From NCBI GenBank assembly GCA_046329865.1, contig JAXLTW010000004.1:91533-155532 (forward strand): a stretch of DNA of 64,000 nucleotides. Direction: 5' to 3'. The notes beneath the pieces are model-generated. The model was not told the DNA's origin. It was given only the letters and a program-made list of their open reading frames with translations, and did not search any database. The stretch is from Chitinophagales bacterium. Lineage in GTDB: Bacteria; Bacteroidota; Bacteroidia; Chitinophagales; JADIYW01. A program made the translations under genes and the position numbers. Positions 1-22,662 of the stretch are shown here, piece after piece (position 1 is the first letter of the stretch; each line of letters starts with the position of its first letter).

Positions 1-239
1 AATACACAATTATAGGGGTGTAGGTTGTCGTATTTTGACTATAATTCTATATTGTCTGATTGGTCAAATAGTCCGATTTTTGACCTAAATCAATAATGTT
101 ATCCATTTAAAGGGTATTGTTTTTGATAAAAGGTGGACAGAGAAACAAATTTCGATACATTCTAAAACCATAAAACTATGAAATACAAGCTGTTGCTTGT
201 AATTATCCGAAATTAGTTCACCATTTTTTCATAAAGACG

Positions 240-269
240 GTGTGTGCCGAAAGGCACACACTTTTTTTT
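240..269 (+). terminator. Rho-independent terminator whose T-run overlaps the first, 5'-degenerate CRISPR repeat
   Basis: GTGTGTGCC (240-248) pairs with GGCACACAC (253-261) around a GAAA loop. A T8 run follows at 262-269. Confidence 0.6.
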
Positions 270-2632
270 ATAGATTGATTTTAAATTGTGTTCTTTATAT
301 ACTAATTTCAACTATTTATGACTATCGAAGGAAATACTAACGGTTGTGAATTGATTTTAAATTGTGTTCTTTATATACTAATTTCAACAAAATCTTCCAT
401 AGCACATTTATCATGGAGTTGTGAATTGATTTTAAATTGTGTTCTTTATATACTAATTTCAACTATCAAGGAGGTAGCCAACCTGATGACGGAGTTGTGA
501 ATTGATTTTAAATTGTGTTCTTTATATACTAATTTCAACGCAGCACCGCCTGGAACTGGCAAAGAAGAGTTGTGAATTGATTTTAAATTGTGTTCTTTAT
601 ATACTAATTTCAACTTACTTTTTTGGCGCCCAAAAAAGTAACCAGTTGTGAATTGATTTTAAATTGTGTTCTTTATATACTAATTTCAACAAGGCCTGTT
701 GTAAATATTCCCGACTGGTAGTTGTGAATTGATTTTAAATTGTGTTCTTTATATACTAATTTCAACAAATGTGACTGATCCGATGTATCATTAGGAGTTG
801 TGAATTGATTTTAAATTGTGTTCTTTATATACTAATTTCAACGTAGCCATCTAACGGCTGTGGGTAAAATTCGTTGTGAATTGATTTTAAATTGTGTTCT
901 TTATATACTAATTTCAACGGCGATGCTATCAAGTTCGTAATGCTGCAGGTTGTGAATTGATTTTAAATTGTGTTCTTTATATACTAATTTCAACTAAATA
1001 CTCCTGAGTATGCAAACATCTAAGTTGTGAATTGATTTTAAATTGTGTTCTTTATATACTAATTTCAACAAATTCTTTCCAAATAGTTGCTTCATCACCG
1101 TTGTGAATTGATTTTAAATTGTGTTCTTTATATACTAATTTCAACAACGTGGATGAAGTGGTGAGCTTCAACGGAGTTGTGAATTGATTTTAAATTGTGT
1201 TCTTTATATACTAATTTCAACAACATAAACGGCAAACAAGTAGTATGGTAGGTTGTGAATTGATTTTAAATTGTGTTCTTTATATACTAATTTCAACTTA
1301 AAATAATACGTGACCATAGCACATTTATCATGGAGTTGTGAATTGATTTTAAATTGTGTTCTTTATATACTAATTTCAACTATCAAGGAGGTAGCCAACC
1401 TGATGACGGAGTTGTGAATTGATTTTAAATTGTGTTCTTTATATACTAATTTCAACGCAGCACCGCCTGGAACTGGCAAAGAAGAGTTGTGAATTGATTT
1501 TAAATTGTGTTCTTTATATACTAATTTTCAACTTACTTTTTGGCGCCCAAAAAAGTAACCAGTTGTGAATTGATTTTAAATTGTGTTCTTTATATACTAA
1601 TTTCAACAAGGCCTGTTGTAAATATTCCCGACTGGTAGTTGTGAATTGATTTTAAATTGTGTTCTTTATATACTAATTTCAACAAATGTGACTGATCCGA
1701 TGTATCATTAGGAGTTGTGAATTGATTTTAAATTGTGTTCTTTATATACTAATTTCAACGTAGCCATCTAACGGTTGTGGGTAAATTCGTTGTGAATTGA
1801 TTTTAAATTGTGTTCTTTATATACTAATTTCAACGGCGATGCTATCAAGTTCGTAATGCTGCAGGTTGTGAATTGATTTTAAATTGTGTTCTTTATATAC
1901 TAATTTCAACTAAATACTCCTGAGTATGCAAACATCTAAGTTGTGAATTGATTTTAAATTGTGTTCTTTATATACTAATTTCAACAAATTCTTTCCAAAT
2001 AGTTGCTTCATCACCGTTGTGAATTGATTTTAAATTGTGTTCTTTATATACTAATTTCAACAACGTGGATGAAGTGGTGAGCTTCAACGGAGTTGTGAAT
2101 TGATTTTAAATTGTGTTCTTTATATACTAATTTCAACAACATAAACGGCAAACAAGTAGTATGGTAGGTTGTGAATTGATTTTAAATTGTGTTCTTTATA
2201 TACTAATTTCAACTTAAAATAATACGTGACCAACAGATCGTTGGTTGTGAATTGATTTTAAATTGTGTTCTTTATATACTAATTTCAACTTGATAGCAAA
2301 TTTAAATGAATATGGGTCTTGAATAGCTACGTTGTGAATTGATTTTAAATTGTGTTCTTTATATACTAATTTCAACTCAAGGCATGTATTGAATGTTTTG
2401 GCTTTCCGTCCTTAAGTTGTGAATTGATTTTAAATTGTGTTCTTTATATACTAATTTCAACAAGGTGCGTGTTGTGAATTGATTTGCTTTATCAAAATGA
2501 TGCAGGTTGTGAATTGATTTTAAATTGTGTTCTTTATATACTAATTTCAATCAAGCTGGCCTATTGTGAATTGATTGATACAGCGTGTCAGGAATTGATT
2601 TTAAATTGTGTTCTTTATATACTAATTTCAAC
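267..2632 (+). CRISPR. Type II (Bacteroidota-style) CRISPR array with 31 repeats of 46 nt and mostly 29-30-nt spacers
   Basis: Consensus repeat is GTTGTGAATTGATTTTAAATTGTGTTCTTTATATACTAATTTCAAC. Repeat starts were indexed by hand: 267 (5' 7 nt degenerate), 343, 418, 494, 569, 645, 721, 797, 873, 949, 1024, 1100, 1176, 1252, 1335, 1411, 1486, 1562, 1638, 1714, 1789, 1865, 1940, 2016, 2092, 2168, 2244, 2331, 2416, 2506 and 2587 (5' 5 nt degenerate). The + strand is assigned as crRNA sense because the tracrRNA anti-repeat (11127-11150, + strand) is complementary to repeat nt 2-25 as written. Confidence 0.97.
400..2232 (+). repeat. Tandem duplication inside the array. Copy 1 is 400-1316 and copy 2 is 1317-2232, each about 12 spacer-repeat units.
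   Basis: The same 12 spacers occur in the same order twice, with a period of 917 bp. The junction spacer at 1298-1334 is a 37-nt chimera. Confidence 0.9.
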
Positions 2633-2687
2633 TGATACAGCGAAATTAGTAGTATTTACAGGGCTTTCCGTTGAAATTTGTATGCAT

Positions 2688-2735
2688 AAAATGCCTGTTT
2701 CATACCAATTATTGGGTGGATGCAGGCATTTTTTA
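2688..2735. terminator. Possible bidirectional terminator between the array trailer and the cas2 3' end
   Basis: AAAATGCCTG (2688-2697) pairs with CAGGCATTTT (2723-2732). The long loop contains a nested CCAAT-T-ATTGG hairpin, with an A-run before and a T-run after. The loop is unusually long for a classic terminator. Confidence 0.35.
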
Positions 2736-2845
2736 TTTCTTACTCCGGATTGCCGGATATATCGAAAAAGGTAAGCCGTTGTTCCCTTGAAAAAGGGAAT
2801 CTACGGGTAGCTTGCCTGAGATTCTCGCTTTCTCGGGAATAACAG

Positions 2846-3208
<363 letters not shown>

Positions 3209-3366: not shown

Positions 3367-3472
3367 AGCCCACGCTTCTTTACGTATTGCGTTATTCAGC
3401 ATGTTCAATTTTATATATCTATACCTAACAACGACCATCCATACACATGGGAGGGTGTAAGTACCCCTTTTT

Positions 3473-4258
3473 TCAGACAGTGCAAATTAGAGTTTTTTGT
3501 TGATTTAATAAATTAATTTTCCATTCATTGGGTGTTTGATTTTGTAAAGATTCGTGCGGTCGTCTGTGATTGTATTCTTCTATCCATTCATCAGTGAGTG
3601 TTCTTACTTCAGCCAGATCAAAAAATAAGTAAGCATCTAACACCGCTTCTCGATACAGCCGGTTAAAGCGTTCTATAAAGCCATTCTGCATAGGTCTTCC
3701 AGGTTGAATATATTGAAGTTTGATTTCATTGTCTGTACACCATAATTCAAAGTCTTTGGAGGTAAATTCTGGTCCGTTGTCAGTTCTTATCATTTGTGGT
3801 TTTCCTCTGTGTCTGATAATTTGTTGCAGTGTCCTGATGACTCTTTTTGCTGAAAGGGATGTGTCTATCTCTATGGCCAGCACTTCTCTAGAGCCGTCAT
3901 CCATCACATTAAACGTTCTGAATTTTCTGTTGCCGACCATACTGTCGCTCATAAAGTCCATGCTCCAGCTTTGATTGATATGGCGCTGTTGTGTCAGCGG
4001 TTGTTTTACCCTTGCCGGCAGCCGTCTTTTACCTCTTCGTTTTCTGTTCAACTTTAACAGCTTATATATCCGATATACTCGCTTATGATTCCAGTCTTTG
4101 CCTGCTCTGCGGATATAGGCAAACAGCTTTCTGAACCCATACGAAGGATGTTTAAAGGCTAAATCCTGCAATAGGGTAATTACCTCCGAGTCGTCTTTTC
4201 TGCTTTGATAGTAGTAACCGGAACGTGGTAATGAGGTCATCTTACAGGCCCTGCTCAC
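3473..4258 (-). CDS. IS3-family transposase OrfB (DDE/rve integrase core), probably made as an OrfAB fusion by -1 frameshifting
   Basis: Integrase-core-like motifs are WSMDFM, REVLAIEID, IRTDNGPEFTS and YNHRRPHESL. The -1 frame read from the A7G site continues without a stop into SRACKMTSLPRSGYYYQ. Confidence 0.9.
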   Translation of the reverse strand: MSRACKMTSLPRSGYYYQSRKDDSEVITLLQDLAFKHPSYGFRKLFAYIRRAGKDWNHKRVYRIYKLLKLNRKRRGKRRLPARVKQPLTQQRHINQSWSMDFMSDSMVGNRKFRTFNVMDDGSREVLAIEIDTSLSAKRVIRTLQQIIRHRGKPQMIRTDNGPEFTSKDFELWCTDNEIKLQYIQPGRPMQNGFIERFNRLYREAVLDAYLFFDLAEVRTLTDEWIEEYNHRRPHESLQNQTPNEWKINLLNQQKTLICTV

Positions 4259-4290
4259 CGGAACGTCATAATCCTTTACAATGGATTCTG

Positions 4291-4590
4291 TCAGTTCCCT
4301 CTGTTTACAGGGCCCCAGCCTTTTTTTGAGATAACATCCTTTAAGATGGCATGATCCATACTCAATTCAGCAAACATCCGCTTCAGCCTTGAATTTTCTT
4401 CTTCCAACTCTTTGAGTCTACGTACATCAGAGGCCTCCATACCTCCGTACTTGCTCTTCCAGTTGTAAAAGGTAGCCTCTGAGATGCCATGCTCCCGGCA
4501 TAACTCCTTGGTGGTTCTGCCACCTTCCTGTTGCCGTAAAATGGAAACTATCTGCGTTTCCGTAAATCGTGTCTTTTTCATAATAAACAA
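4291..4590 (-). CDS. IS3-family transposase OrfA (HTH)
   Basis: FTETQIVSILRQQEGGRTTKELCREHGISEATFYNWKSKYGGM followed by a leucine-zipper-like LKELEEENSRLKRMFAEL segment is typical of IS3 OrfA. Confidence 0.9.
   Translation of the reverse strand: MFIMKKTRFTETQIVSILRQQEGGRTTKELCREHGISEATFYNWKSKYGGMEASDVRRLKELEEENSRLKRMFAELSMDHAILKDVISKKGWGPVNRGN
4320..4328 (-). promoter_or_regulatory. Programmed -1 ribosomal frameshift site (A7G slippery run) of the IS3 transposase
   Basis: The minus strand reads TCAAAAAAAGG near the end of orfA. A -1 shift joins orfA to the orfB frame with no intervening stop. Confidence 0.6.
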
Positions 4591-4652
4591 TTTAAATTTA
4601 AGAGTTTTACTCCATTTTTAAACTGTCTGATTTTTAGGGACACTTACAAGGG

Positions 4653-4870
4653 GAGGACGGTAAGTGGTTCACATTTCATAAAGCGCATTTCAAAAATAAT
4701 AGCTAACCTGTATTGATACCTACTAACTAGACTGAATCGCACTGTCTCATTCCCCCTCCTGGGATAATAGAAGTAGTTCACATTTCAAAAGTGCATATAA
4801 AAATACCATCTAATTCGTATTAATACCTAAAACTAAACTGTATCGCACTGTCCCATTTCCCCTCCTGGGA
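4653..4870. repeat. Two tandem copies of a roughly 109-bp intergenic repeat between the IS and cas1. A degenerate third copy is interrupted by the IS.
   Basis: GTTCACATTTCA occurs at 4667 and 4776. Both units end in CGCACTGTC..CCCCTCCTGGGA. The sequence left of the IS (about 3400-3455) ends in CATGGGAGGG and resembles a unit end. Confidence 0.7.
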
Positions 4871-4889: not shown

Positions 4890-5780
4890 TCAGCCAATTT
4901 GCGGGTACAACAGCTTCTTGCTCTTCCCTTCAAAACAAGCCGCCAGAGATGCCGTCGTGCGTTGCAAACCTACCATCAATGGACTGTCTTTGCCGTCAAT
5001 GTTTAAATCTATATTCGGAATATTTAATAGTTGTCTTTTGATTTCCGTTGTCAACTCTTGTTCATCGCTTTCTACCATGATTTCTTTCACCAAATGGTCC
5101 ACATAGGGACGATAAGGTTCCATGATGTCATCTGCCAGACAATAGGCATTGTATTTGTTGCGGTGATGAATCCCCAACGTGGGCAATAAGCCGGAAGAAA
5201 CCAGGCCGCGCGCTACGGTAGCCCGCAGGATGGCGTAGCCGTAATTCAAAAAATTGTTCGGGTATTCCCCGAAACGTTCCCGAACAAAAAACGGGTCTTC
5301 CTCATTAAAGAGCACTTTCCAGTAATAGCGGGCAGCCTGCGCTTCCTGATTGGTGCTGTCGCCGCTCAACACTAGTTGCACATAACGTTTCAGATAGCTG
5401 TTGTCTATTTCCCATTTTTCGAGCACTGCCGACTGGTTTTGTATTTTGGCTTTAATGGTTTGTTGCCACAATTGTTTTTTCAATGGTTCGGAAGCCTCAA
5501 TCTGTGCCTTGAATTTTTCGGATTGCTGGGTATGTCCGTCCAGGTTTAAAAGTAATCCGGTGGGATGATGTTTGTCATTGCAGGTAATCACAGCGGCATT
5601 GTTTTCCAGTAGCCGGTGCAATACCGCATGGGTAACAGAAACCTGATAATGGTCTATAACTACGACGCCTATATCTTCAATCGGCACAGTACGTTCCGCA
5701 TCTTCGGTTTTAATCAGCAATTGTTGCTGCTGTACCGACAGACGAGACGGATTGCCGAAATAGAGAGTGCGTTTGATCAT
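4890..5780 (-). CDS. cas1: CRISPR-associated endonuclease Cas1 (type II)
   Basis: The 296-aa product begins MIKRTLYFGNPSRLSVQQQQL, a typical type II Cas1 start. It contains NFLNYGYAILRATVARGL and MEPYRPYVD. It starts immediately after the cas9 stop. Confidence 0.93.
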   Translation of the reverse strand: MIKRTLYFGNPSRLSVQQQQLLIKTEDAERTVPIEDIGVVVIDHYQVSVTHAVLHRLLENNAAVITCNDKHHPTGLLLNLDGHTQQSEKFKAQIEASEPLKKQLWQQTIKAKIQNQSAVLEKWEIDNSYLKRYVQLVLSGDSTNQEAQAARYYWKVLFNEEDPFFVRERFGEYPNNFLNYGYAILRATVARGLVSSGLLPTLGIHHRNKYNAYCLADDIMEPYRPYVDHLVKEIMVESDEQELTTEIKRQLLNIPNIDLNIDGKDSPLMVGLQRTTASLAACFEGKSKKLLYPQIG

Positions 5781-5781
5781 G

Positions 5782-8700
5782 TCATGCTTTTGAGATGTTA
5801 CCTAATCTATCCACTTTGAGTTTGATGCAAAATTCTTTAATCATAATAGGTTTCTCATTTTTATCATATGAACAGTTGCTGTCTAGGAAATCTTGCATTC
5901 TTTCGCTTTTGCTATTCGTTCCATTTTCATTTTTGACAATTTCCGACGCATTAGAATATGGAATAAAATGTGCTTCTTTATCAGTGCAACTAACAAATTT
6001 GTATACTCTTTTAATTTGAGCTTTGTTCAAAGAACCAAAAGAAGCAACATTTATATTTTTTTGCTCATTCTCTGTTGGTATATACACCAAATCATTAGGT
6101 GATAGAATTATATCTTCATTTAGATCGATTAATCCATTCTCTTTACTTAGTATTTTATCTTTTTCCTCTTTTATTGCAACTCTGAGAGAAATTGTCTCAT
6201 AATTTGTGTTTCCCTCTGTTTTAGTAATTCTAAAATGAAAATTACCGCCTGTTTCTACCCATTTATGAGAGTTTGATTTTTTCTTTCCGATAGAAAATTT
6301 AAGTGATGCACTTTCTGAAATAGGCAATCTTTTAACAGGAATTTTTCTGTTTCTGTTAAACTCTTCTATCCCTTCAGTTGAAAATGCTTTATCTATATCG
6401 TTATCATTATTTTGTAGATGAAGTAATAAGTCATTTCGTAGTTTCAAATCTGCTATTTTATAGATTCTGTCTTTTATAGCATCAGACGTTGATAAAGCTC
6501 CGGTTCCTGTTCTTATTGAAAGACTTGTAATAGGTTGTCTTTTTCTGTATTTGGTATTGGCTATTTTAAAGTCTGCAAATTCAATCACTTCATCATTAAA
6601 GGATATTGGATTCTTTGATATATACTTCTTAGTCTCTCCAATCTTATTGTCGTGCATACCTAAAATTTCCTTCACAGCGTCTCTAATTCGCTCATCTATT
6701 ATTAAATTCGCCTTTCCAATATTATCTGTAATTTTCAATCTGTCATAATGCAAAATAATTTCCGCACTTGGATTGTCTGTATGTAACGGCTTTCTAACAC
6801 TCCAATGTTTGTTATTATCATTCTTTTGACTGATAAAACCTTTTATAGGTCTTCCATTTGGATCCAATCTTAAATCTCCGTTTTCGTCATAGTAACTTTC
6901 GTATTTGTTAGATGATTTTGAAATTAGTTTAAAATCGTTTTTGAATGAAACAATACAATGTTCAAGTGCTTCTAAAGCTACTTTCTTATAATCTTTTCTT
7001 CTAGTGTTAGAATAATTGTTTTGCCAATCCATGTCTATAACCGATGATTTATCATTCACTTCAGACAGTTTGGTTCTAAAAGAACCTGGCAACATATAAA
7101 TCCAAACTCTTTCGTTTGGATTTTCTTTGTTTGGTTCGCTATACATTATTTGCCGTTTAATACCTGCTCTCTGTTTTTTTATGGCTTCTATTTTTTCTTT
7201 CTTTTTATAGTTTAATCCCGAATTGACATTATTAATGTATTGAACATGATTTTCTGTGCAAAGTGCAACAATTAAGGCATCTAAGGCATGATGACGGTGG
7301 TCTAGTCTTTTTATTTCAAATTTTTCATTTTTCTCTAAAATGTATTTTGTATTGATATCAAAATATTTGTGCCCGCTTTTTGAAATCTTATACTTACCGA
7401 AATCTTCCGATTTGTGCAGTACATTTAATCTTTCAAATCTTGGCGTTAAAAGTTCTGTCCAAACTTGATTAAATTTCCACTCCTTTTTTAACTTATCTGT
7501 GATTGCTCCAGAAACAGGAAGCAGATTTTTTGAACGAAACTCTACTTCACCTTCTTCACGAACTACATGGCTAAGCAGTTCCATTGCTTTACGAGCAATG
7601 TGCTTTGCATTGTTCATCTGACTGTCTGTAAAGCCGGTTGGAACTTCTTTAGAAAGTAAAATAAAACGCTTGGCATCTCTGAATTGAGTTTTTACCAAAC
7701 TCACATATGTCTCTTCATTCATCAATTCAAATGTGATTTTCTTGTTTAGGATTTCATCAAAAATGGTATGTGATTTCCCACCAAATTGTGCTATAAATTC
7801 TCTTGCAGTGTTGTCGGACTTAAATCTGTTTAAAAAAGCTTCACAAACTACCTTATTATTCAGTGAGTCATTTGTTACAGATGCTCTTGGTAAAATGTGG
7901 TCAATGTTGTACTTGTTTCCATTAAATAAATCTGTCAACTTTATCATTTCTCCTGTGTAAGGAGATCGATAACCTTGTTCAATCCAGAGTTTATACTTTT
8001 CAAAATCAGTCTTACTTATTCTTTGTTTTTTCAGAATAACTTCAATCTCTTTTTTATCAAACTTACCGGAATTGTCGTCGTAAAATCTTTTTTCTGAATA
8101 GCTTCTTGCTTTTGCTCCATCTTCTACGATTTTCAAACGTTCGAAATGGTCTTGGTTTCCTTTTTTAGCATTGTATGGAGATTGGCTCAAAAATTCTTCT
8201 AAAATATTTCTCAATCTTTCATTTTCTGTTCTACTGTTTTTTTGTCGTTCTGCGATTTCTTTCTTTTCATTATTCGATTTTTGTAGCTCTCTCGCAACTT
8301 CTAAATGAATTTCTGAAAAGAAATTCTTACTAGATTTCCCATAATATTCCCATATATCTGCTACTACTTTCATTGTTTCTTTGAGTACTTTTTCTGCTAC
8401 AGGATTATTAAGTGAATGATGTTTTAATTCTTTGTTTATCTCACCTCTTATTTTTTGTGGACTGTCCCAGTATTTTGCTTGCGCTAATTCAGAATGTCTT
8501 CCGTAAATAAAATAGGATGCTTGTGTTAAATTCAAAAATCTAAAATCTTCTATTTTTGTGAAGCTCTTAAAAGTATTGAACAGCCCTTTGGGATATGGCA
8601 ATTCACCATGTTTTGTATCCACTTCATTTAAAACCGATTTGCTGTAATCAATTTCTTTTGCAGACCAATTAATTGTAGCACATTTCTCAAGAATTATATT

Positions 8701-11049
8701 TACCCTTTGGAGATATTTTTTCTGCCAAGGTTCATCAAATTTTACTTTTGTTAAAAAATTATCTTCAACCCTCATTACAGAAAGTAATTTTCGTAATGAT
8801 TTAGACGAATATGCAGCATATTTTGATGGAAACTTCGGAAATGTTTCAAAATTTTTGCATAAACTCTCAAATATTTTTTCATCAACTTCAGGGCCTTCTA
8901 AATACTTTCTAAAAAAGTTTTGAATACTAGTTTTTCCAAATTTCGGATTATTTTTATCTTTTGTCTCACTTTGCTTTGTTCGCTCTTTTGGACTAACAGA
9001 ATATAAATAATGCCATAGCTCAATTTCTTTTTTTTGCGTCATAAAACTTTCAAAGTCAGTAAATCCAGATTGTTTAAACTTGTTTTCAAAGCTCTTTCTA
9101 GTTTCATTTCCCTTAAATTCTTCTTCTTCAGGAAAATTCCACAAAATTTTCCTTTCTCCTTTCTTGCCAACATCTAACCCGAATTGCTTCTTGCAAAAAT
9201 CTAAAAAATCATCAATTGCAACTGTTGAGCGTTTATTGAAATGCTTAAATAGCGCTTGATAATCGTCGGGTTTAAAATACTCGGATGTTATATCCACATT
9301 CGTTTCAGACTTTCCTTCCGCATCTTTTGCTTCTAATTGAATCAATCTGATGTTATGGATTTTATCCCATATTCGAAACTCCTGAAATAATGGGTGTGAG
9401 GCTGATACCGCTTTTTTATAGATAGGTCTTTCGGTAACTTCTCCTGTTGTTGTATCAATTTCTTCTTTCCAATAATCGATTTCATATTTACAGTCAGCAA
9501 TTTCAGATTTTTTGGGTTTCAAAGGTCTTTGATACAGCAAAATATCTTCGACAAGCAAATGAGCTAGAGCGTTTTTGTTTTGAAATAATGCTTTTGCGTG
9601 TACTTCGTTATGAGGATATAAAAGTTTCACGCATTGCTCAAAAACCGATTGGTCTTCTAAGGTTTTGTGAAATTGTCTTTGTGTAGCAATAATTTGCTTA
9701 AGTTCTTCACGGTAAAATTTTCTATCAATGGTTTGAAATAAACCACCAATAATTTTAGTTCTGTTTCCCGTTTCTGCGTCGCTTTTTATAATATCATATA
9801 TCTTAGGGGATATAAAATATTTGACCAAATTGGTTTCTTTATCTATATAACCTTTTTCGATGTTAAATTTGATTGCATCTTTTTCTGTTTTCTTCTTAAG
9901 TAATGTCCAATCCTTACTTCCTTCGCTATTAAAGTCAGGTGTCTTTATGCTTGGAATTAGTGTTTCTGGTTGACCTTTGATATTATATGTGTTTGATATT
10001 ACAAATAAATCTTTAGCGATTTTTCCTTCGTTTTCTAGTTTGGTTGCTAAATCGTGATAAGATTTATTCGGTTTCTCTTTTTTTTGTTCTTTTATCCAAC
10101 CGTTAGAGTAAATGAAATAGTATATTTGCTTGAATATTTTGTCATCTGTTTCTTTGTGTTCTATTTTTGAAAGAGTCAGGTTGTATAAATCACTTATTTG
10201 ATATACCACTTTTTCCTTTTCGATATTTCCTGCATTGTCTAGTTTAGAAATTTTTAAAACCTCTTTTATCTCGTCTTTGAACGTAAGTTGTTCATTAGTA
10301 TATTCTTTATAGGTAAAGTTTTCAGCATCGTTTAGTGTTATTTCATAGAAAGTACCATTTTTATCAGATTTTTTCTCGGAACTGATTACTTTTAAATCTA
10401 ATAATTCCTTTATTTCATCAGATTTTTCATTGTTATTTTCAATTTCATCGAGTTCTGTTCCTCTTTTTTGATTATAGCTTAATAACACCCAAGCAAGTTC
10501 TTCTAAAGAAATTTTTTCTTTCAATGCTTTTTGTCTTAGATAATAAATAGCCCAATCCTTTGGTACTCTCTTTCCTTTTGTATTTTTAATTTCTGAATTT
10601 ACTTTCTGCAAATCCTTTACCATTTCTTCAAAAGCATCTTCAAAATAAAATGCTTGTTTGTTTTCACTGTTTTTAATAGGCAAATACGCAATTTTAGGCT
10701 CGGTTTCATCTTTGAATTTTCCACATCTCTTACCATTTCTTTCAAAATCAATTTCAATTTTGTAATGCTCTGGTAATGCTTCCAATAAATTCAAGACTAA
10801 GTGTAGGCGATCTCTCCTTAAAAGATAACGCTCTTTTGTAATCCTTGCACGATGAAGTGCAGTCCTATTTCCAGCTGCACTTGTGATTTTCTGCCCAGCA
10901 TTGAATTTCGAAAATTCCTGCCCATCCATAGGAATAATTCTTGCTCCAATCCCTACTATTTTTAATAATTTCTCTTTGTAGTCAATTTCAATTAATGCCC
11001 AGCCAATGCTGTTTGTTCCTAAGTCTAATCCTAATATCTTTTTCATCAT
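5782..11049 (-). CDS. cas9: CRISPR-associated endonuclease Cas9, 1755 aa
   Basis: RuvC-I is GLDLGTNSIGWA (D9). The arginine-rich bridge helix is RTALHRARITKERYLLRRDR. RuvC-II is IHLEVARE (E917, codon at 8299-8301). HNH is YNIDHILPRASVTNDSLNNKVV (D1050-H1051, codons at 7897-7902). RuvC-III is DHRHHALDALIVA (H1253, codon at 7291-7293). Confidence 0.97.
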   Translation of the reverse strand: MMKKILGLDLGTNSIGWALIEIDYKEKLLKIVGIGARIIPMDGQEFSKFNAGQKITSAAGNRTALHRARITKERYLLRRDRLHLVLNLLEALPEHYKIEIDFERNGKRCGKFKDETEPKIAYLPIKNSENKQAFYFEDAFEEMVKDLQKVNSEIKNTKGKRVPKDWAIYYLRQKALKEKISLEELAWVLLSYNQKRGTELDEIENNNEKSDEIKELLDLKVISSEKKSDKNGTFYEITLNDAENFTYKEYTNEQLTFKDEIKEVLKISKLDNAGNIEKEKVVYQISDLYNLTLSKIEHKETDDKIFKQIYYFIYSNGWIKEQKKEKPNKSYHDLATKLENEGKIAKDLFVISNTYNIKGQPETLIPSIKTPDFNSEGSKDWTLLKKKTEKDAIKFNIEKGYIDKETNLVKYFISPKIYDIIKSDAETGNRTKIIGGLFQTIDRKFYREELKQIIATQRQFHKTLEDQSVFEQCVKLLYPHNEVHAKALFQNKNALAHLLVEDILLYQRPLKPKKSEIADCKYEIDYWKEEIDTTTGEVTERPIYKKAVSASHPLFQEFRIWDKIHNIRLIQLEAKDAEGKSETNVDITSEYFKPDDYQALFKHFNKRSTVAIDDFLDFCKKQFGLDVGKKGERKILWNFPEEEEFKGNETRKSFENKFKQSGFTDFESFMTQKKEIELWHYLYSVSPKERTKQSETKDKNNPKFGKTSIQNFFRKYLEGPEVDEKIFESLCKNFETFPKFPSKYAAYSSKSLRKLLSVMRVEDNFLTKVKFDEPWQKKYLQRVNIILEKCATINWSAKEIDYSKSVLNEVDTKHGELPYPKGLFNTFKSFTKIEDFRFLNLTQASYFIYGRHSELAQAKYWDSPQKIRGEINKELKHHSLNNPVAEKVLKETMKVVADIWEYYGKSSKNFFSEIHLEVARELQKSNNEKKEIAERQKNSRTENERLRNILEEFLSQSPYNAKKGNQDHFERLKIVEDGAKARSYSEKRFYDDNSGKFDKKEIEVILKKQRISKTDFEKYKLWIEQGYRSPYTGEMIKLTDLFNGNKYNIDHILPRASVTNDSLNNKVVCEAFLNRFKSDNTAREFIAQFGGKSHTIFDEILNKKITFELMNEETYVSLVKTQFRDAKRFILLSKEVPTGFTDSQMNNAKHIARKAMELLSHVVREEGEVEFRSKNLLPVSGAITDKLKKEWKFNQVWTELLTPRFERLNVLHKSEDFGKYKISKSGHKYFDINTKYILEKNEKFEIKRLDHRHHALDALIVALCTENHVQYINNVNSGLNYKKKEKIEAIKKQRAGIKRQIMYSEPNKENPNERVWIYMLPGSFRTKLSEVNDKSSVIDMDWQNNYSNTRRKDYKKVALEALEHCIVSFKNDFKLISKSSNKYESYYDENGDLRLDPNGRPIKGFISQKNDNNKHWSVRKPLHTDNPSAEIILHYDRLKITDNIGKANLIIDERIRDAVKEILGMHDNKIGETKKYISKNPISFNDEVIEFADFKIANTKYRKRQPITSLSIRTGTGALSTSDAIKDRIYKIADLKLRNDLLLHLQNNDNDIDKAFSTEGIEEFNRNRKIPVKRLPISESASLKFSIGKKKSNSHKWVETGGNFHFRITKTEGNTNYETISLRVAIKEEKDKILSKENGLIDLNEDIILSPNDLVYIPTENEQKNINVASFGSLNKAQIKRVYKFVSCTDKEAHFIPYSNASEIVKNENGTNSKSERMQDFLDSNCSYDKNEKPIMIKEFCIKLKVDRLGNISKA

Positions 11050-11114: not shown

Positions 11115-11122
11115 TATATTTG
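11115..11122 (+). promoter_or_regulatory. Bacteroidota -7 promoter motif (TAnnTTTG) for the tracrRNA
   Basis: TATATTTG is an exact match to the consensus. It ends 5 nt before the anti-repeat. Confidence 0.55.
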
Positions 11123-11126
11123 CAGT

Positions 11127-11205
11127 ACACAATTTAAAATCAATTCACAATAAGGATTATTCCGTTGTGAAAACATCTAAGGCGGGGCAACTCGCCTTTT
11201 TTTAT
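11127..11205 (+). ncRNA. tracrRNA (anti-repeat, linker and terminator hairpin)
   Basis: ACACAATTTAAAATCAATTCACAA (11127-11150) is the exact reverse complement of repeat nt 2-25. It is followed by TAAGGATTATTCCGTTGTGAAAACATCT and the terminator AAGGCG-GGGCAACT-CGCCTT plus a T7 run (11179-11205). The 5' end is inferred from the promoter motif and has not been mapped. Confidence 0.85.
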
Positions 11206-19701: not shown

Positions 19702-20286
19702 TTAATATAATCGAACCGGAAACTCAACTTCGATATCACTTTCGCCATCCGCATTGGTGATGTCACCCGAAGCCACACCGGCTGCATTTTTTGCAGGTTC
19801 ATGTCGCAGGGTGATGCGGAACGAACCGTTAGTCAGGGTGTTTGAAGTGGCGCAACGGAATGCATTGCCAATGGGAAACCCGTTCTTGTCAGCATCCAGA
19901 TAAGAAATAGAGTTCAGCAACTCAGCAGGCGATGACATAAAGAAAAACTGGTGTTCTTCGCCCAATTCAATGATCTCATTCGTAACGGTATCCGCCGGAA
20001 AGTCGCGCTCGTCCAGCAGTAAAAGTGTGGCATTATACGTTCGGTTCTTAGGTAACAGGATGCTGTCCTGTACCGGAGGTTCGCCGCCTTCGCCATCTAT
20101 ATCCGTAAAAGAGAAGGAGTAAGAGGTATACGGAGCAGTCGTATCCGTAAAGGTAATACGAAGGGTAGTGATCAATTCTTGTTCCGGGGCAGGGGTGCGC
20201 GGTTCTTTGCGACATCCTGATACACCCCAAAACAAAATTATGAAGAGTAAGATACGACGGATATTGAAAGTAGACATAGGGTGCAA
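19702..20286 (-). CDS. Hypothetical lipoprotein co-transcribed with the upstream TonB-dependent receptor
   Basis: Lipobox GVSGC. It begins 1 nt after the receptor gene ends. Confidence 0.55.
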   Translation of the reverse strand: MHPMSTFNIRRILLFIILFWGVSGCRKEPRTPAPEQELITTLRITFTDTTAPYTSYSFSFTDIDGEGGEPPVQDSILLPKNRTYNATLLLLDERDFPADTVTNEIIELGEEHQFFFMSSPAELLNSISYLDADKNGFPIGNAFRCATSNTLTNGSFRITLRHEPAKNAAGVASGDITNADGESDIEVEFPVRLY

Positions 20287-22662
20287 TTAGTCTTGATGAA
20301 AGGTATATTTTAAACGGAAAATCAGATTCCACCCGGTTTCATCTGAATAATACCGGAAGCGGTTCAGGTAATCCCGGTAGACGGTATTGGTCATATTTTC
20401 CGCAGTTACAGAAAACGACAGCCGGTGTTGTTGCCGTATGATGTAATCGAATCCGGCTTCGCTGTTCAGCATGGTGTATGCATCCGGATCAGGTTTATAA
20501 TCGGGGATCAATGCCGGTGTGTTTAGTTGTTTAAAGACATGCGACACTTGTAGTGCCAGATGCACATTTTGTACGTGTTTAAAATCGTGGTGCAATTCAA
20601 CAGAACCGCTAATACGATCGGAAGGCAAATAGATCAGGTGGTCGTTAGCAGAGGTGTTTCTTCCACGCACAATCGATGCTTTAAACCCAAGGCTGAGGTA
20701 GTTGAGCGGGTCACTGCTCAGAGTGACATCCAGGCCGAGCAAACGGGCATTGGTTTGATAGTAGCGGAATGCAGGAAAAGCGCCGCGTATGGTTAGTACA
20801 GGATCCGGCAACGGCGCCAGATAGATGTAATCGCGAATAGAAGAGAGATAAAAGGTCAGTTCTGCCTGAAGGTATTTTTGATAATGCATACTGGCCGTAT
20901 TTACCCACTTGATGCCCTTTTCCGGGCGCAGGTTCTCGTTGCCAAATTCCAGTGCGGCAATGCCATGGTGCAGGCCTTCGCTGAACAATTCGCTGGCATT
21001 CGGAAAACGCGAAGAGTAGGAGAGGTTGGTTTGTAATTGAATTATATCGGTGTTGTTGTGCCAACTTGCCCCACCTGTGAAGGCATACGTATGAAAGTTG
21101 TATACCGGTTTCAGTAAAGTATTCTTCTTATCGAATTTATAGCCATAAAATTTCGTGAACTCATAGCGTGCTCCTGCCTCCAGTACGAAATTGCCGATAG
21201 TGTAGGTTTCCATGTCATAGATGCCCAACGTGTACTGGTAGTAATCCGGTATCAAGGGACGGATACCAGTTTCGGGATTATTGGCATTGTGTTTGGCTAA
21301 AAAGTTGACACCCGATTTTCCCTGCAAACGGCTGTCGTGTTTGGCAAAAGAAAACGAGCGGCTGTAGGATGCAGCAAGATTATTCGATAATAAGCGCATA
21401 TCCAGGGCAGGGATGGAAGAGCGATTTCCACGACGGATATCAAACTCTTTCCGGTTGTTCAATTGAACTGAATAGATGATAACAACATGTTGGTCGTTGT
21501 GAAAGAATTTACTGATCGTAAGTTTACTCAGATGATGCGTAATTTTTTGTTGCGGGTTTTCCAATGCGTAGGTGAAGGGACGCACGATCAGCGGCGTGTC
21601 ACGGGCAATGGCGTTGTTGAGGTCAGTGAGGTTGCCGATGTGGGCACTTCGCAGGATACCGAGTTGCTGGCGGAACAACGCATAATAGACATTTACGTCC
21701 CATCCCTTTTTCAGAAAGCCCATACCGGCGGAAAAGTTGCCTTCGCGCTGGCCGGTATTGGTCAGGTTGTAACGCGGTGTCTGCTGGTCGCCTGCAAATT
21801 TGAAAGTCCCTTGCAGAAAATATGCCACCTGTTTTTTGAACCCTTGTTCCACGCGTGCAGAAGCAGTGATCCCACGATCGTTGGTCTGACCGACCAGGCT
21901 CAGTGAAGCGAGCAGGTGCTGCTTTTTTTTCAGCACAGCAGGTTCCATCAGTACCATGCCACCCATGGCATCCGTGCCGTATTCCAGGCTGCCGGCGCCT
22001 TTCACAACCTTGATCGTGTTGGAGGCAAAAGGATCGATTTCCGGGGCGTGGTCGGTGCCCCAGTCCTGGGTTTCCAGGCGCACGCCGTTGCTGATGATGG
22101 ATATACGGTCGCCATACATACCATGTATGACGGGCTTGCTGATGGTCGTGCCGGTTTTCAATTGGTTCACACCTGCAATCGTTGACAGTATACTGCCGAG
22201 GTCTTTTCCTTCCAGTTTGGAGAGCGTTTTGCTGTCGATCTCGCTGGTCGTTTGGGTGTGCTCATGTACCGATTTAGTAGCTACTGCCGTTATCTCTGCC
22301 AGTTCTTCTTCGTGATGCTCTAAATAAAAATCATGTTCAGTATTTGCCGTCAGGGTGAGTTGTACGGTATCCGGAGTACAGCCTACATGTTCAATGACAA
22401 AAGTGTAAGTGCCGGTACAAAGATTCTTGAACTCGTAATGGCCAGCTGCATCGGCAGCGGTTCCTTGTTGCAATTCCACGATATAAATATTGGCGAAATC
22501 CAGCCTGGATTGCTCGTGCCGGTCGATGATATTTCCGCTGATGGAAAGATGGCAATCTTGTGAAGCCATAGCCAATGGTAATGCGATCAACATCAATAGT
22601 ACGGGCAATACTTTATGCAACATAATTGCAAATATAAAAAATCCATTTTGTATATGCAACAA
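20287..22662 (-). CDS. TonB-dependent receptor with CarboxypepD_reg-like N-terminal domain
   Basis: The plug and barrel end in the aromatic terminus YTFHQD. The N-terminal segment is GNIIDRHEQSRLDFANIYI. The more likely start is the internal Met at 22623, which gives the signal peptide MLHKVLPVLLMLIALPLAMA. Confidence 0.85.
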   Translation of the reverse strand: MLHIQNGFFIFAIMLHKVLPVLLMLIALPLAMASQDCHLSISGNIIDRHEQSRLDFANIYIVELQQGTAADAAGHYEFKNLCTGTYTFVIEHVGCTPDTVQLTLTANTEHDFYLEHHEEELAEITAVATKSVHEHTQTTSEIDSKTLSKLEGKDLGSILSTIAGVNQLKTGTTISKPVIHGMYGDRISIISNGVRLETQDWGTDHAPEIDPFASNTIKVVKGAGSLEYGTDAMGGMVLMEPAVLKKKQHLLASLSLVGQTNDRGITASARVEQGFKKQVAYFLQGTFKFAGDQQTPRYNLTNTGQREGNFSAGMGFLKKGWDVNVYYALFRQQLGILRSAHIGNLTDLNNAIARDTPLIVRPFTYALENPQQKITHHLSKLTISKFFHNDQHVVIIYSVQLNNRKEFDIRRGNRSSIPALDMRLLSNNLAASYSRSFSFAKHDSRLQGKSGVNFLAKHNANNPETGIRPLIPDYYQYTLGIYDMETYTIGNFVLEAGARYEFTKFYGYKFDKKNTLLKPVYNFHTYAFTGGASWHNNTDIIQLQTNLSYSSRFPNASELFSEGLHHGIAALEFGNENLRPEKGIKWVNTASMHYQKYLQAELTFYLSSIRDYIYLAPLPDPVLTIRGAFPAFRYYQTNARLLGLDVTLSSDPLNYLSLGFKASIVRGRNTSANDHLIYLPSDRISGSVELHHDFKHVQNVHLALQVSHVFKQLNTPALIPDYKPDPDAYTMLNSEAGFDYIIRQQHRLSFSVTAENMTNTVYRDYLNRFRYYSDETGWNLIFRLKYTFHQD

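What the first reader, a model, noticed from the sequence alone, without database searches (positions are those of the whole stretch)
389..2243. 917-bp tandem duplication of 12 spacer-repeat units, with its junction inside spacers at a CCA microhomology
Spacers 3-14 (464-1251) reappear in the same order at 1381-2167. The junction spacer (1298-1334, 37 nt) is a chimera. Its first part, TTAAAATAATACGTGACCA, is the 5' part of the intact spacer at 2214-2243. Its second part, TAGCACATTTATCATGGA, is the 3' part of the spacer at 389-417. Both parental spacers carry CCA at the breakpoint.

The duplication therefore did not arise by simple repeat-repeat recombination. An illegitimate or microhomology-mediated event between two spacers is more likely.

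The copies differ at four positions:
- T3 to T4 in the repeat at 1486-1532
- T6 to T5 in the palindromic spacer
- C to T in spacer 1760-1788
- A4 to A3 in spacer 1760-1788
Basis: seen in the sequence. Interest (0 to 1): 0.65.

Follow-up and report, generated by a model that had tools for sequence, protein, structure and literature searches.

The report
Tandem duplication inside a CRISPR array
A bacterial CRISPR array (type II-C, wastewater Bacteroidota) contains a 917-bp block of twelve repeat-spacer units twice in a row, joined through a hybrid spacer rather than a repeat; this is an unusual detail of an ordinary kind of array rearrangement, and no public reads could confirm it.

Summary
Positions 267-2632 are a CRISPR array of 31 repeats of 46 nt. 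Positions 400-1316 recur at 1317-2232, with 913 of 917 positions identical. The joint is a clean 37-nt chimeric spacer (1298-1334): 19 nt of spacer 2214-2243, then 18 nt of spacer 389-417, with CCA shared.

The array belongs to a type II-C locus. It has cas9, cas1 and cas2 on the minus strand, an IS3-family element between cas1 and cas2, and a tracrRNA upstream of cas9.

The spacer at 2214-2243 matches a viral contig 30/30, so it is parental and the chimera is derived.

The most likely reading is a very recent, genuine duplication made by template switching between two spacers. The four copy differences would then be unpolished consensus errors.

Three limits apply:
- A 3-nt microhomology is barely above chance (P about 0.05-0.08).
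- A two-step route gives the same sequence.
- An assembly artefact is not excluded, because no public run or contig holds these spacers.

The leader-proximal end (2290-2642) is also scrambled.

Block duplication of spacers is known. A junction inside spacers is an uncommon variant. Interest is low to moderate.

The parts
267..2632 (+). CRISPR array: 31 repeats of 46 nt and 30 spacers, transcribed on the + strand towards cas2
   Evidence: for the array. The strand follows from the tracrRNA anti-repeat.
267..312 (+). Terminal (leader-distal, oldest) repeat. Its first 7 nt are degenerate: TTTATAG instead of GTTGTGA.
   Evidence: The leader-distal end repeat is degenerate in the same way in relatives L002, L003 and L004.
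389..417 (+). Parental spacer S02 (29 nt). Its 3' 18 nt, after CCA at 397-399, form the second half of the chimera.
400..1316 (+). Copy 1 of the duplicated block (917 nt)
1298..1334 (+). Chimeric junction spacer S14 (37 nt): S26[1-19] + S02[12-29], with CCA at 1314-1316 common to both parents
1317..2232 (+). Copy 2 of the duplicated block (916 nt). It carries the extra T in repeat 1486-1532 and T5 in the palindromic spacer, the two differences that could be polarised, plus T1775 and A3 at 1783.
2214..2243 (+). Parental spacer S26 (30 nt). It has an exact protospacer in IMG/VR UViG_3300033066_001203, with 3' flank ATAAAGGAGAAG.
2290..2642 (+). Irregular leader-proximal units:
- The 'spacers' are 41, 39, 44 and 35 nt.
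- Partial repeats lie at 2471-2485 and 2563-2576.
- Leader 10-mers recur inside spacers: GGCTTTCCGT in S28 and TGATACAGCG in S30.
- Repeats R30 and R31 are mutated.
2633..2740 (+). Leader and variable-end flank. It holds inverted partial copies of the repeat 3' end and a hairpin followed by a T-run (GCCTG...CAGGC TTTTTT).
   Evidence: Leader polarity follows the type II-C literature (PMC8092290).
2846..3175 (-). cas2 (109 aa)
3471..4632 (-). IS3-family insertion sequence (two transposase ORFs, terminal inverted repeats) lying between cas2 and cas1
   Evidence: In L001, cas2 and cas1 are adjacent.
4890..5780 (-). cas1, type II (TIGR03639, 318 bits)
5782..11049 (-). cas9, an intact ORF of 1755 aa (TIGR01865, 276 bits; HNH and RuvC_III domains)
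11117..11205 (+). Candidate tracrRNA. The anti-repeat is a 34-nt match to repeat positions 2-35, of which 24 nt are perfectly complementary to positions 2-25. It is followed by TAAGG..CCG and a terminator, GGCGGGGCAACTCGCC plus T7.

Best explanation
This is a genuine and very recent head-to-tail duplication of 917 bp inside the array of a type II-C CRISPR-Cas locus.

Inferred ancestral order: ...S01-S02-S03...S13-S26-S27...

Inferred mechanism:
- During replication, or repair of a break, a growing 3' end had just copied ...GTGACCA in S26.
- It left its template and re-paired with the CCA of S02, 917 nt behind.
- Synthesis went on from there.
- The block from S02 position 12 to S26 position 19 was therefore copied twice.
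- A 37-nt hybrid spacer marks the joint.
- The event did not use the 46-nt repeats and needs no long homology (a RecA-independent, slippage or template-switch type of event).

Consequences:
- No new target is gained.
- The 21 repeat-proximal nt of the hybrid are those of S02, so its guide is a second copy of the S02 guide.
- Eleven other guides are doubled in dose.

The four differences between the copies are most likely consensus errors left where polishing reads map to both copies, not divergence.

Shown: the structure, the parentage of the hybrid, the locus type and the strand. Inferred: the mechanism, the recency and the error status of the differences.
For: - The structure and the clean joint are in the sequence. 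Both halves of the hybrid match their parents exactly, without the noise of a garbled consensus.
- S26 is a complete viral protospacer, 30/30, lying in a small ORF beside a 547-aa ORF that looks like a large terminase subunit (not tested). The 19-nt part in the hybrid is therefore the truncated derivative.
- The hybrid is 8 nt out of register (19 + 18 = 37 nt). This does not fit a collinear switch between two reads aligned through the repeats.
- The locus is otherwise coherent. It has intact cas9, cas1 and cas2, a tracrRNA with an anti-repeat and terminator, and a promoter-like TTGATT-17-TATACT in every repeat.
- Block duplications of spacers are a known outcome of array dynamics. About 3% of spacers in CRISPRCasdb are reconstructed as duplicated (PMC11472070).
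- Recency follows from that paper's figure that spacers are lost 374 times faster than a site mutates. By my arithmetic, all four differences arising before any of the 24 duplicated spacers is lost has a probability of about 0.17^4 = 0.0008. Four real mutations are therefore unlikely.
- Three of the four differences are homopolymer-length changes. No gene in the other 61 kb is split by a frameshift.
Against: - No read-level or independent support was found.
  - The chimera, S13 and the S02 3' part are absent from the genome and metagenome contig collections.
  - No public run holds these spacers. Related strains carry the same repeat and flanks but entirely different spacers.
- The indel signature suggests a long-read metagenome assembly. 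Arrays of related long-read MAGs (L006, L008) are visibly garbled compared with short-read assemblies of the same lineage (L007, L009).
- The leader-proximal end of this same array is irregular, which could also be a consensus problem.
- Three bases of microhomology are expected at 5-8% of random joints.
- The hairpin at the S26 breakpoint is not significant (-5 kcal/mol, z = -1.5).
Confidence: 0.55

Rival explanations
1. Assembly or consensus artefact. The organism has one copy of the block. The second copy and the hybrid spacer would come from one of three sources: a chimeric or mis-overlapped long read; a mixture of array variants in the population; or polishing of a false join, where reads clipped from each side meet at a chance CCA.
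For: - Three of the four copy differences are homopolymer-length changes, and they lie only in the duplicated block. The rest of the window has no frameshifted gene.
- The sample type is a wastewater or activated-sludge metagenome with several co-existing strains that differ in all spacers.
- Related long-read MAG contigs have garbled arrays.
- The variable end of this array is irregular.
- No independent sequence contains the chimera.
Against: - Assemblers join reads at long matches, which here means in the repeats. They do not join inside spacers at 3 nt.
- The joint is clean and 8 nt out of register.
- 25 of the 26 repeats from R02 to R27 are perfect, and the two copies agree at 913 of 917 positions. 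Local consensus quality is therefore good.
- A 2.4-kb array is easily spanned by single long reads.
Confidence: 0.28
2. A genuine duplication made in two steps. First, ordinary misalignment between repeats R27 and R02 duplicated 13 whole units, giving ...S13-R-S26-R-S02-R-S03.... Then a 68-bp deletion between the CCA of S26 and the CCA of S02 removed 11 nt of S26, one repeat and 11 nt of S02.
For: - It yields exactly the observed sequence.
- Repeat misalignment is the accepted common route to spacer duplication and loss (PMC11472070).
- Other partial-repeat remnants in this array (2471-2485, 2563-2576) show that small out-of-register deletions or joins have happened here.
Against: - It needs two events where one suffices.
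- The second step is again an illegitimate 3-nt event, so nothing is saved mechanistically.
- No intermediate was found in any collection.
Confidence: 0.12
3. An old duplication whose four differences are real mutations accumulated since the event.
For: - Spacers are not under selection against indels.
- One difference is a C-to-T substitution rather than a homopolymer change.
- For the two differences that can be polarised (the repeat consensus and the symmetry of the palindromic spacer), the derived state lies in copy 2.
Against: - Published rates give spacer loss 374 times the per-site mutation rate. Under those rates, 4 changes with all 24 spacers retained in perfect register is very improbable (about 0.0008 by my arithmetic).
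- Two 917-bp copies at 99.6% identity would also be collapsed quickly by homologous recombination.
Confidence: 0.05

Closest known systems
Spacer-block duplication in CRISPR arrays by repeat misalignment (replication slippage or unequal exchange between repeats), as reconstructed by SpacerPlacer (PMC11472070)
   Same: A contiguous block of repeat-spacer units is present twice, head to tail, inside one array. No new spacers are gained. The product is expected to be unstable.
   Different: The joint here lies inside two spacers and creates a 37-nt hybrid spacer. The block is 12 units, longer than the mean of 2.7 spacers reported for block deletions. No paper describing such hybrid spacers turned up in the searched library.
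RecA-independent tandem duplications between very short homologies in bacterial chromosomes (replication slippage, template switching).
   Same: Direct head-to-tail copies, a joint with a few shared bases, and no need for long homology.
   Different: It happened in a region full of 46-nt perfect repeats that offer a much easier substrate. The 3-nt overlap is itself only marginally non-random.
Type II-C CRISPR-Cas loci of Bacteroidota (for example Flavobacterium columnare, PMC8092290) and Neisseria meningitidis
   Same: - cas9-cas1-cas2 followed by the array, with no csn2 or cas4.
- Repeat starting GTTGT.
- Array transcribed towards the leader (variable) end next to cas2.
- Promoter-like element in each repeat.
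- tracrRNA upstream of cas9.
   Different: - The repeat is 46 nt (36 nt in F. columnare).
- An IS3-family element lies between cas1 and cas2.
- Cas9 is 1755 aa.
- The leader-proximal units are irregular.
- The PAM is unknown. The single protospacer has the 3' flank ATAAAGGAGAAG.

Membership tests
Type II-C CRISPR-Cas locus | cas9 present with HNH and RuvC domains | tested here: met
   TIGR01865 scores 276 bits (cut-off 100). Pfam HNH_4 and RuvC_III both match.
Type II-C CRISPR-Cas locus | cas1 and cas2 present; no csn2 (II-A) or cas4 (II-B) in the operon | tested here: met
   Cas1 matches TIGR03639 at 318 bits and Cas2 matches TIGR01573 at 72 bits. The only other ORFs between the array and the gene beyond cas9 are IS3 transposase ORFs.
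Type II-C CRISPR-Cas locus | tracrRNA with an anti-repeat complementary to the repeat | tested here: met
   Positions 11117-11150 (+) give a 34-nt match to repeat positions 2-35, of which 24 nt are perfectly complementary to positions 2-25. A terminator follows. Expression was not tested.
Type II-C CRISPR-Cas locus | crRNAs transcribed from promoters inside each repeat, towards the leader end | tested here: inconclusive
   TTGATT-17-TATACT is present in every repeat on the + strand, but it matches the consensus at only 9 of 12 positions. No RNA data were found.
Repeat-mediated spacer duplication (repeat misalignment) | The junction of the two copies lies within a repeat, leaving all spacers intact | tested here: not met
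   The junction lies inside spacers and gives a 37-nt hybrid. It is compatible only as the first step of a two-step route.
Short-homology (microhomology) tandem duplication | Direct head-to-tail copies with a few bases shared by both parental sequences at the joint | tested here: met
   Copies 400-1316 and 1317-2232 are head to tail, and CCA is shared. Chance expectation for 3 or more shared bases is 5-8%, so the feature is met but weakly informative.
Short-homology (microhomology) tandem duplication | Formation independent of homologous recombination, through replication template switching or end joining | not testable with these tools
   This needs genetics or a time series in a cultured strain.
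Genuine genomic feature rather than an assembly product | Independent reads or assemblies contain the junction | tested here: inconclusive
   No run or contig with these spacers exists in the searched collections. This gives neither support nor contradiction.

The most novel reading that the evidence does not exclude
The hybrid spacer may not be an isolated accident. The same array also has partial repeats embedded in over-long leader-proximal 'spacers' and leader 10-mers copied into spacers (2290-2642). Together these could record a recurrent, repeat-independent rearrangement process acting on this array. One candidate is aberrant, off-register strand transfer or disintegration by Cas1-Cas2, perhaps after the IS insertion uncoupled cas2 from cas1. 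Another is break repair after self-cleavage.
Probability: 0.08. Interest if true: 0.55.

Novelty: new variant of a known kind. Interest (0 to 1): 0.25.

Why it matters
If the duplication is real, CRISPR arrays can be rearranged by events that ignore the repeats and create hybrid spacers. Models of array evolution and spacer-based strain typing assume whole-unit gain, loss and duplication, so such events would be misread as new acquisitions.

There is also a practical point. Duplicated blocks and variable ends of arrays in metagenome assemblies are places where consensus errors gather, so odd spacers there should be checked against reads.

The biological consequence for the cell is small. No new target is gained and 12 guides are doubled in dose.

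Tried and rejected
- **Read support.** Three run searches used the junction region, the cas region and a housekeeping region (one search failed on length). Two read layings covered eight runs. Only repeat words and the array flanks were found. Related strains, with up to 74% of words shared, carry other spacers.
- **Exact-pattern scans.**
  - The chimera was absent from genome contigs.
  - S13 and the S02/S14 shared part were absent from metagenome contigs.
  - The repeat itself was found in three other MAGs, with no shared spacer.
- **Exact look-up of the window's Cas2 and Cas1.** Neither is on record.
- **Cas2 homologue search.** It found relatives of at most 90% identity. Their arrays share no spacer with the window.
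- **Protospacers.** S26 was found. S02, S08/S20, S05/S17, S27 and S28 were not found (one search failed). The C/T difference could therefore not be polarised.
- **Hairpin-induced stalling at the breakpoints.** This was rejected as evidence. The S26 hairpin has z = -1.5 and S02 has z = +0.7.
- **Self-targeting.** No spacer matches the rest of the window at 6 or fewer mismatches.
- **Are S27-S30 diverged copies of the leader?** Only two 10-mers and two partial repeats are significant. S27 shows nothing.
- **HIRAN domain at the end of the long Cas9.** It is absent in the window and present as a separate ORF in relatives.

Full report
**What is there**

Positions 267-2632 of the + strand are a CRISPR array.
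- It has 31 copies of a 46-nt repeat, GTTGTGAATTGATTTTAAATTGTGTTCTTTATATACTAATTTCAAC.
- Spacers are 29-30 nt over most of its length.

On the minus strand to its right lie the cas genes (Pfam, NCBIfam):
- cas2 (2846-3175);
- an IS3-family insertion sequence (about 3471-4632; inverted ends);
- cas1 (4890-5780; TIGR03639, 318 bits);
- an intact cas9 of 1755 aa (5782-11049; TIGR01865, 276 bits).

There is no csn2 or cas4, so by gene content this is a type II-C locus.

Upstream of cas9, on the + strand, 11117-11150 is an anti-repeat. It gives a 34-nt match to repeat positions 2-35, of which 24 nt are perfectly complementary to positions 2-25. It is followed by TAAGG...CCG and a G+C hairpin with T7. 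This is a typical tracrRNA layout.

The anti-repeat fixes the crRNA strand as +. The array is therefore transcribed towards cas2. [quoted passage not shown] Every repeat here carries TTGATT-17-TATACT, a weak consensus match.

The leftmost repeat (267-312) is degenerate in its first 7 nt. The leftmost repeats of related arrays are degenerate in the same way. It is therefore the old terminal repeat, and the leader is the cas2-proximal flank (2633 onwards).

**The observation**

It is correct.
- Copy 1 is 400-1316 (917 nt) and copy 2 is 1317-2232 (916 nt).
- They differ by one substitution (C858/T1775) and three single-base homopolymer changes: an extra T at 1525 in repeat 1486-1532, T6/T5 at 619/1537, and A4/A3 at 866/1783.
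- Each block has 12 repeats and 11 whole spacers.
- The joint is the 37-nt spacer 1298-1334. Its first 19 nt equal the start of S26 (2214-2243). Its last 18 nt, or 21 counting CCA, equal the end of S02 (389-417).
- One small correction: eleven intact spacers are duplicated, not twelve. The twelfth unit carries the hybrid.

**Parentage**

S26 matches an IMG/VR viral contig 30/30. The match lies in a small ORF beside a 547-aa ORF that looks like a large terminase subunit; I did not test that assignment. S26 is therefore an original acquisition, and the 19-nt piece in the hybrid is a truncated copy.

This rules out the hybrid as an independent acquisition or as the ancestor of the other two spacers.

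**Mechanism**

A single repeat-repeat exchange cannot put the joint inside spacers.

The simplest account is one template switch, or illegitimate join, from CCA in S26 back to CCA in S02, 917 nt upstream. I regard 'microhomology-mediated' as plausible but weakly supported, for two reasons:
- A random joint shows three or more shared bases 5% of the time with equal base frequencies, and 8% with this composition.
- Hairpins at the breakpoints are not significant.

A two-step route gives the same sequence and cannot be told apart from it here. It would be a repeat-mediated duplication of 13 units, then a 68-bp CCA-to-CCA deletion that removes a repeat.

**Consequence**

The 21 repeat-proximal nucleotides of the hybrid are those of S02, so the guide it encodes duplicates that of S02. 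The extra T in repeat 1486-1532 lies outside the part that pairs with the tracrRNA.

**The four differences**

Outside the array, the ORFs of 110 aa or more are long and closely packed. The adjacent same-strand pairs I tested are separate genes, not split ones. Indel errors are therefore rare in unique sequence, yet 3 indels lie in 1.83 kb of duplicated sequence. This is what one expects if polishing reads cannot be placed uniquely in two near-identical copies. That expectation is my inference from general practice.

Real divergence is unlikely. SpacerPlacer reports spacer loss at 374 times the per-site mutation rate (PMC11472070).
- With 1834 sites and 24 duplicated spacers, the chance that a point change precedes any spacer loss is about 0.17.
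- For four changes the chance is about 0.0008 (my arithmetic).

If the duplication is real, it is very recent.

**Is it real?**

I could not test this.
- No public run holds the spacers.
- In eight wastewater or activated-sludge runs with related strains, only the repeat words and the flanks are present, and even the oldest spacer differs.
- The hybrid, S13 and the S02 3' part are absent from the genome and metagenome contig collections.
- The window's Cas2 and Cas1 are not on record exactly.
- Relatives with Cas2 at 90% identity or less share no spacer.

Three points count against an artefact:
- The joint is clean.
- It is 8 nt out of register.
- It lies in unique sequence, where assemblers do not join reads.

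Five points keep the artefact reading alive:
- The error signature points to a long-read metagenome assembly.
- The community holds several strains with different arrays.
- Two related long-read MAG contigs (L006, L008) have badly garbled arrays, although their cas genes are also fragmented, unlike here.
- Short-read assemblies of that lineage (L007, L009) are clean.
- The variable end of this very array is irregular.

I put about 0.67 on a genuine duplication (0.55 one-step, 0.12 two-step) and about 0.28 on an artefact.

**The irregular leader-proximal end**

The last four 'spacers' are 41, 39, 44 and 35 nt.
- S29 and S30 contain the first 14-15 nt of the repeat.
- S28 and S30 each contain a 10-mer that recurs in the leader, GGCTTTCCGT and TGATACAGCG.
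- R30 ends in T, and R31 starts GTCAGGA.

Neither S27 nor S28 has a viral match. This could be real scrambling by further out-of-register events, or consensus over a heterogeneous variable end. I could not tell which.

**Comparison and novelty**

Duplication of spacer blocks is known and is ascribed to repeat misalignment. Short-homology tandem duplication is a known bacterial process (my own knowledge). I found no description of hybrid spacers made this way in the searched library.

I file this as a new variant of a known kind, in an otherwise ordinary type II-C locus of a wastewater Bacteroidota. The exact repeat also occurs in MAGs labelled Chitinophagales and Bacteroidota. Interest is low to moderate and depends on read confirmation.

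Noticed in passing
window 2290-2642: The leader-proximal end of the array is scrambled. The 'spacers' are 41, 39, 44 and 35 nt. Partial repeats sit inside S29 (2471-2485) and S30 (2563-2576). Leader 10-mers recur inside S28 (GGCTTTCCGT) and S30 (TGATACAGCG, again at 2633-2642). Repeats R30 and R31 are mutated.
   Followed up: partly
window 3471-4632 (and 4662-4870): An IS3-family insertion sequence lies between cas2 and cas1. In the related MAG HKST-UBA57 the two genes are about 90 nt apart. Next to it is a 106-bp repeat, 1.9 copies, that carries IS-end-like sequence.
   Followed up: partly
window 5782-11049 (-): The Cas9 ORF is 1755 aa, which is unusually long. About 1000 aa precede the HNH domain. 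No extra Pfam domain was detected.
   Followed up: no
L007 3559-4038 (also L008, L010, L012; fused to cas9 in the gene calls of L009 and L011): Relatives with Cas2 90% identical carry a 159-aa HIRAN-domain ORF (PF08797, E = 1.7e-12) between cas9 and cas1. The window has no counterpart.
   Followed up: partly
window 615-644 and 1533-1561: Spacer S05 is a 12-bp-stem palindrome (DNA fold -9.4 kcal/mol, z = -5.2). Its copy S17 has lost one T, which breaks the symmetry. No viral match was found.
   Followed up: partly
window 2643-2652 and 2670-2683; leaders of L001 and L006-L013: The leader contains inverted partial copies of the repeat's 3' end (GAAATTAGTA, GTTGAAATTTGTAT). GAAATTAGTAT is conserved in the leaders of related loci. 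It may be a leader recognition motif.
   Followed up: no
window 19702-22662 (-): A TonB-dependent-receptor ORF of 791 aa (Plug and CarboxypepD_reg domains) ends at a stop and is followed in the same frame by a 194-aa ORF with no Pfam match. This may be an in-frame stop or a pseudogene.
   Followed up: no
L006 (GCA_964269645.1) and L008 (GCA_963851735.1): These public MAG contigs have garbled CRISPR arrays (spacers of 8-110 nt, repeats with indels) and fragmented cas9. Short-read assemblies of the same lineage (L007, L009) have clean arrays that share some of the same spacers.
   Followed up: partly
window 239-270: A strong + strand terminator (GGTGTGTGCC GAAA GGCACACACT followed by T8) runs directly into the degenerate terminal repeat of the array.
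   Followed up: no
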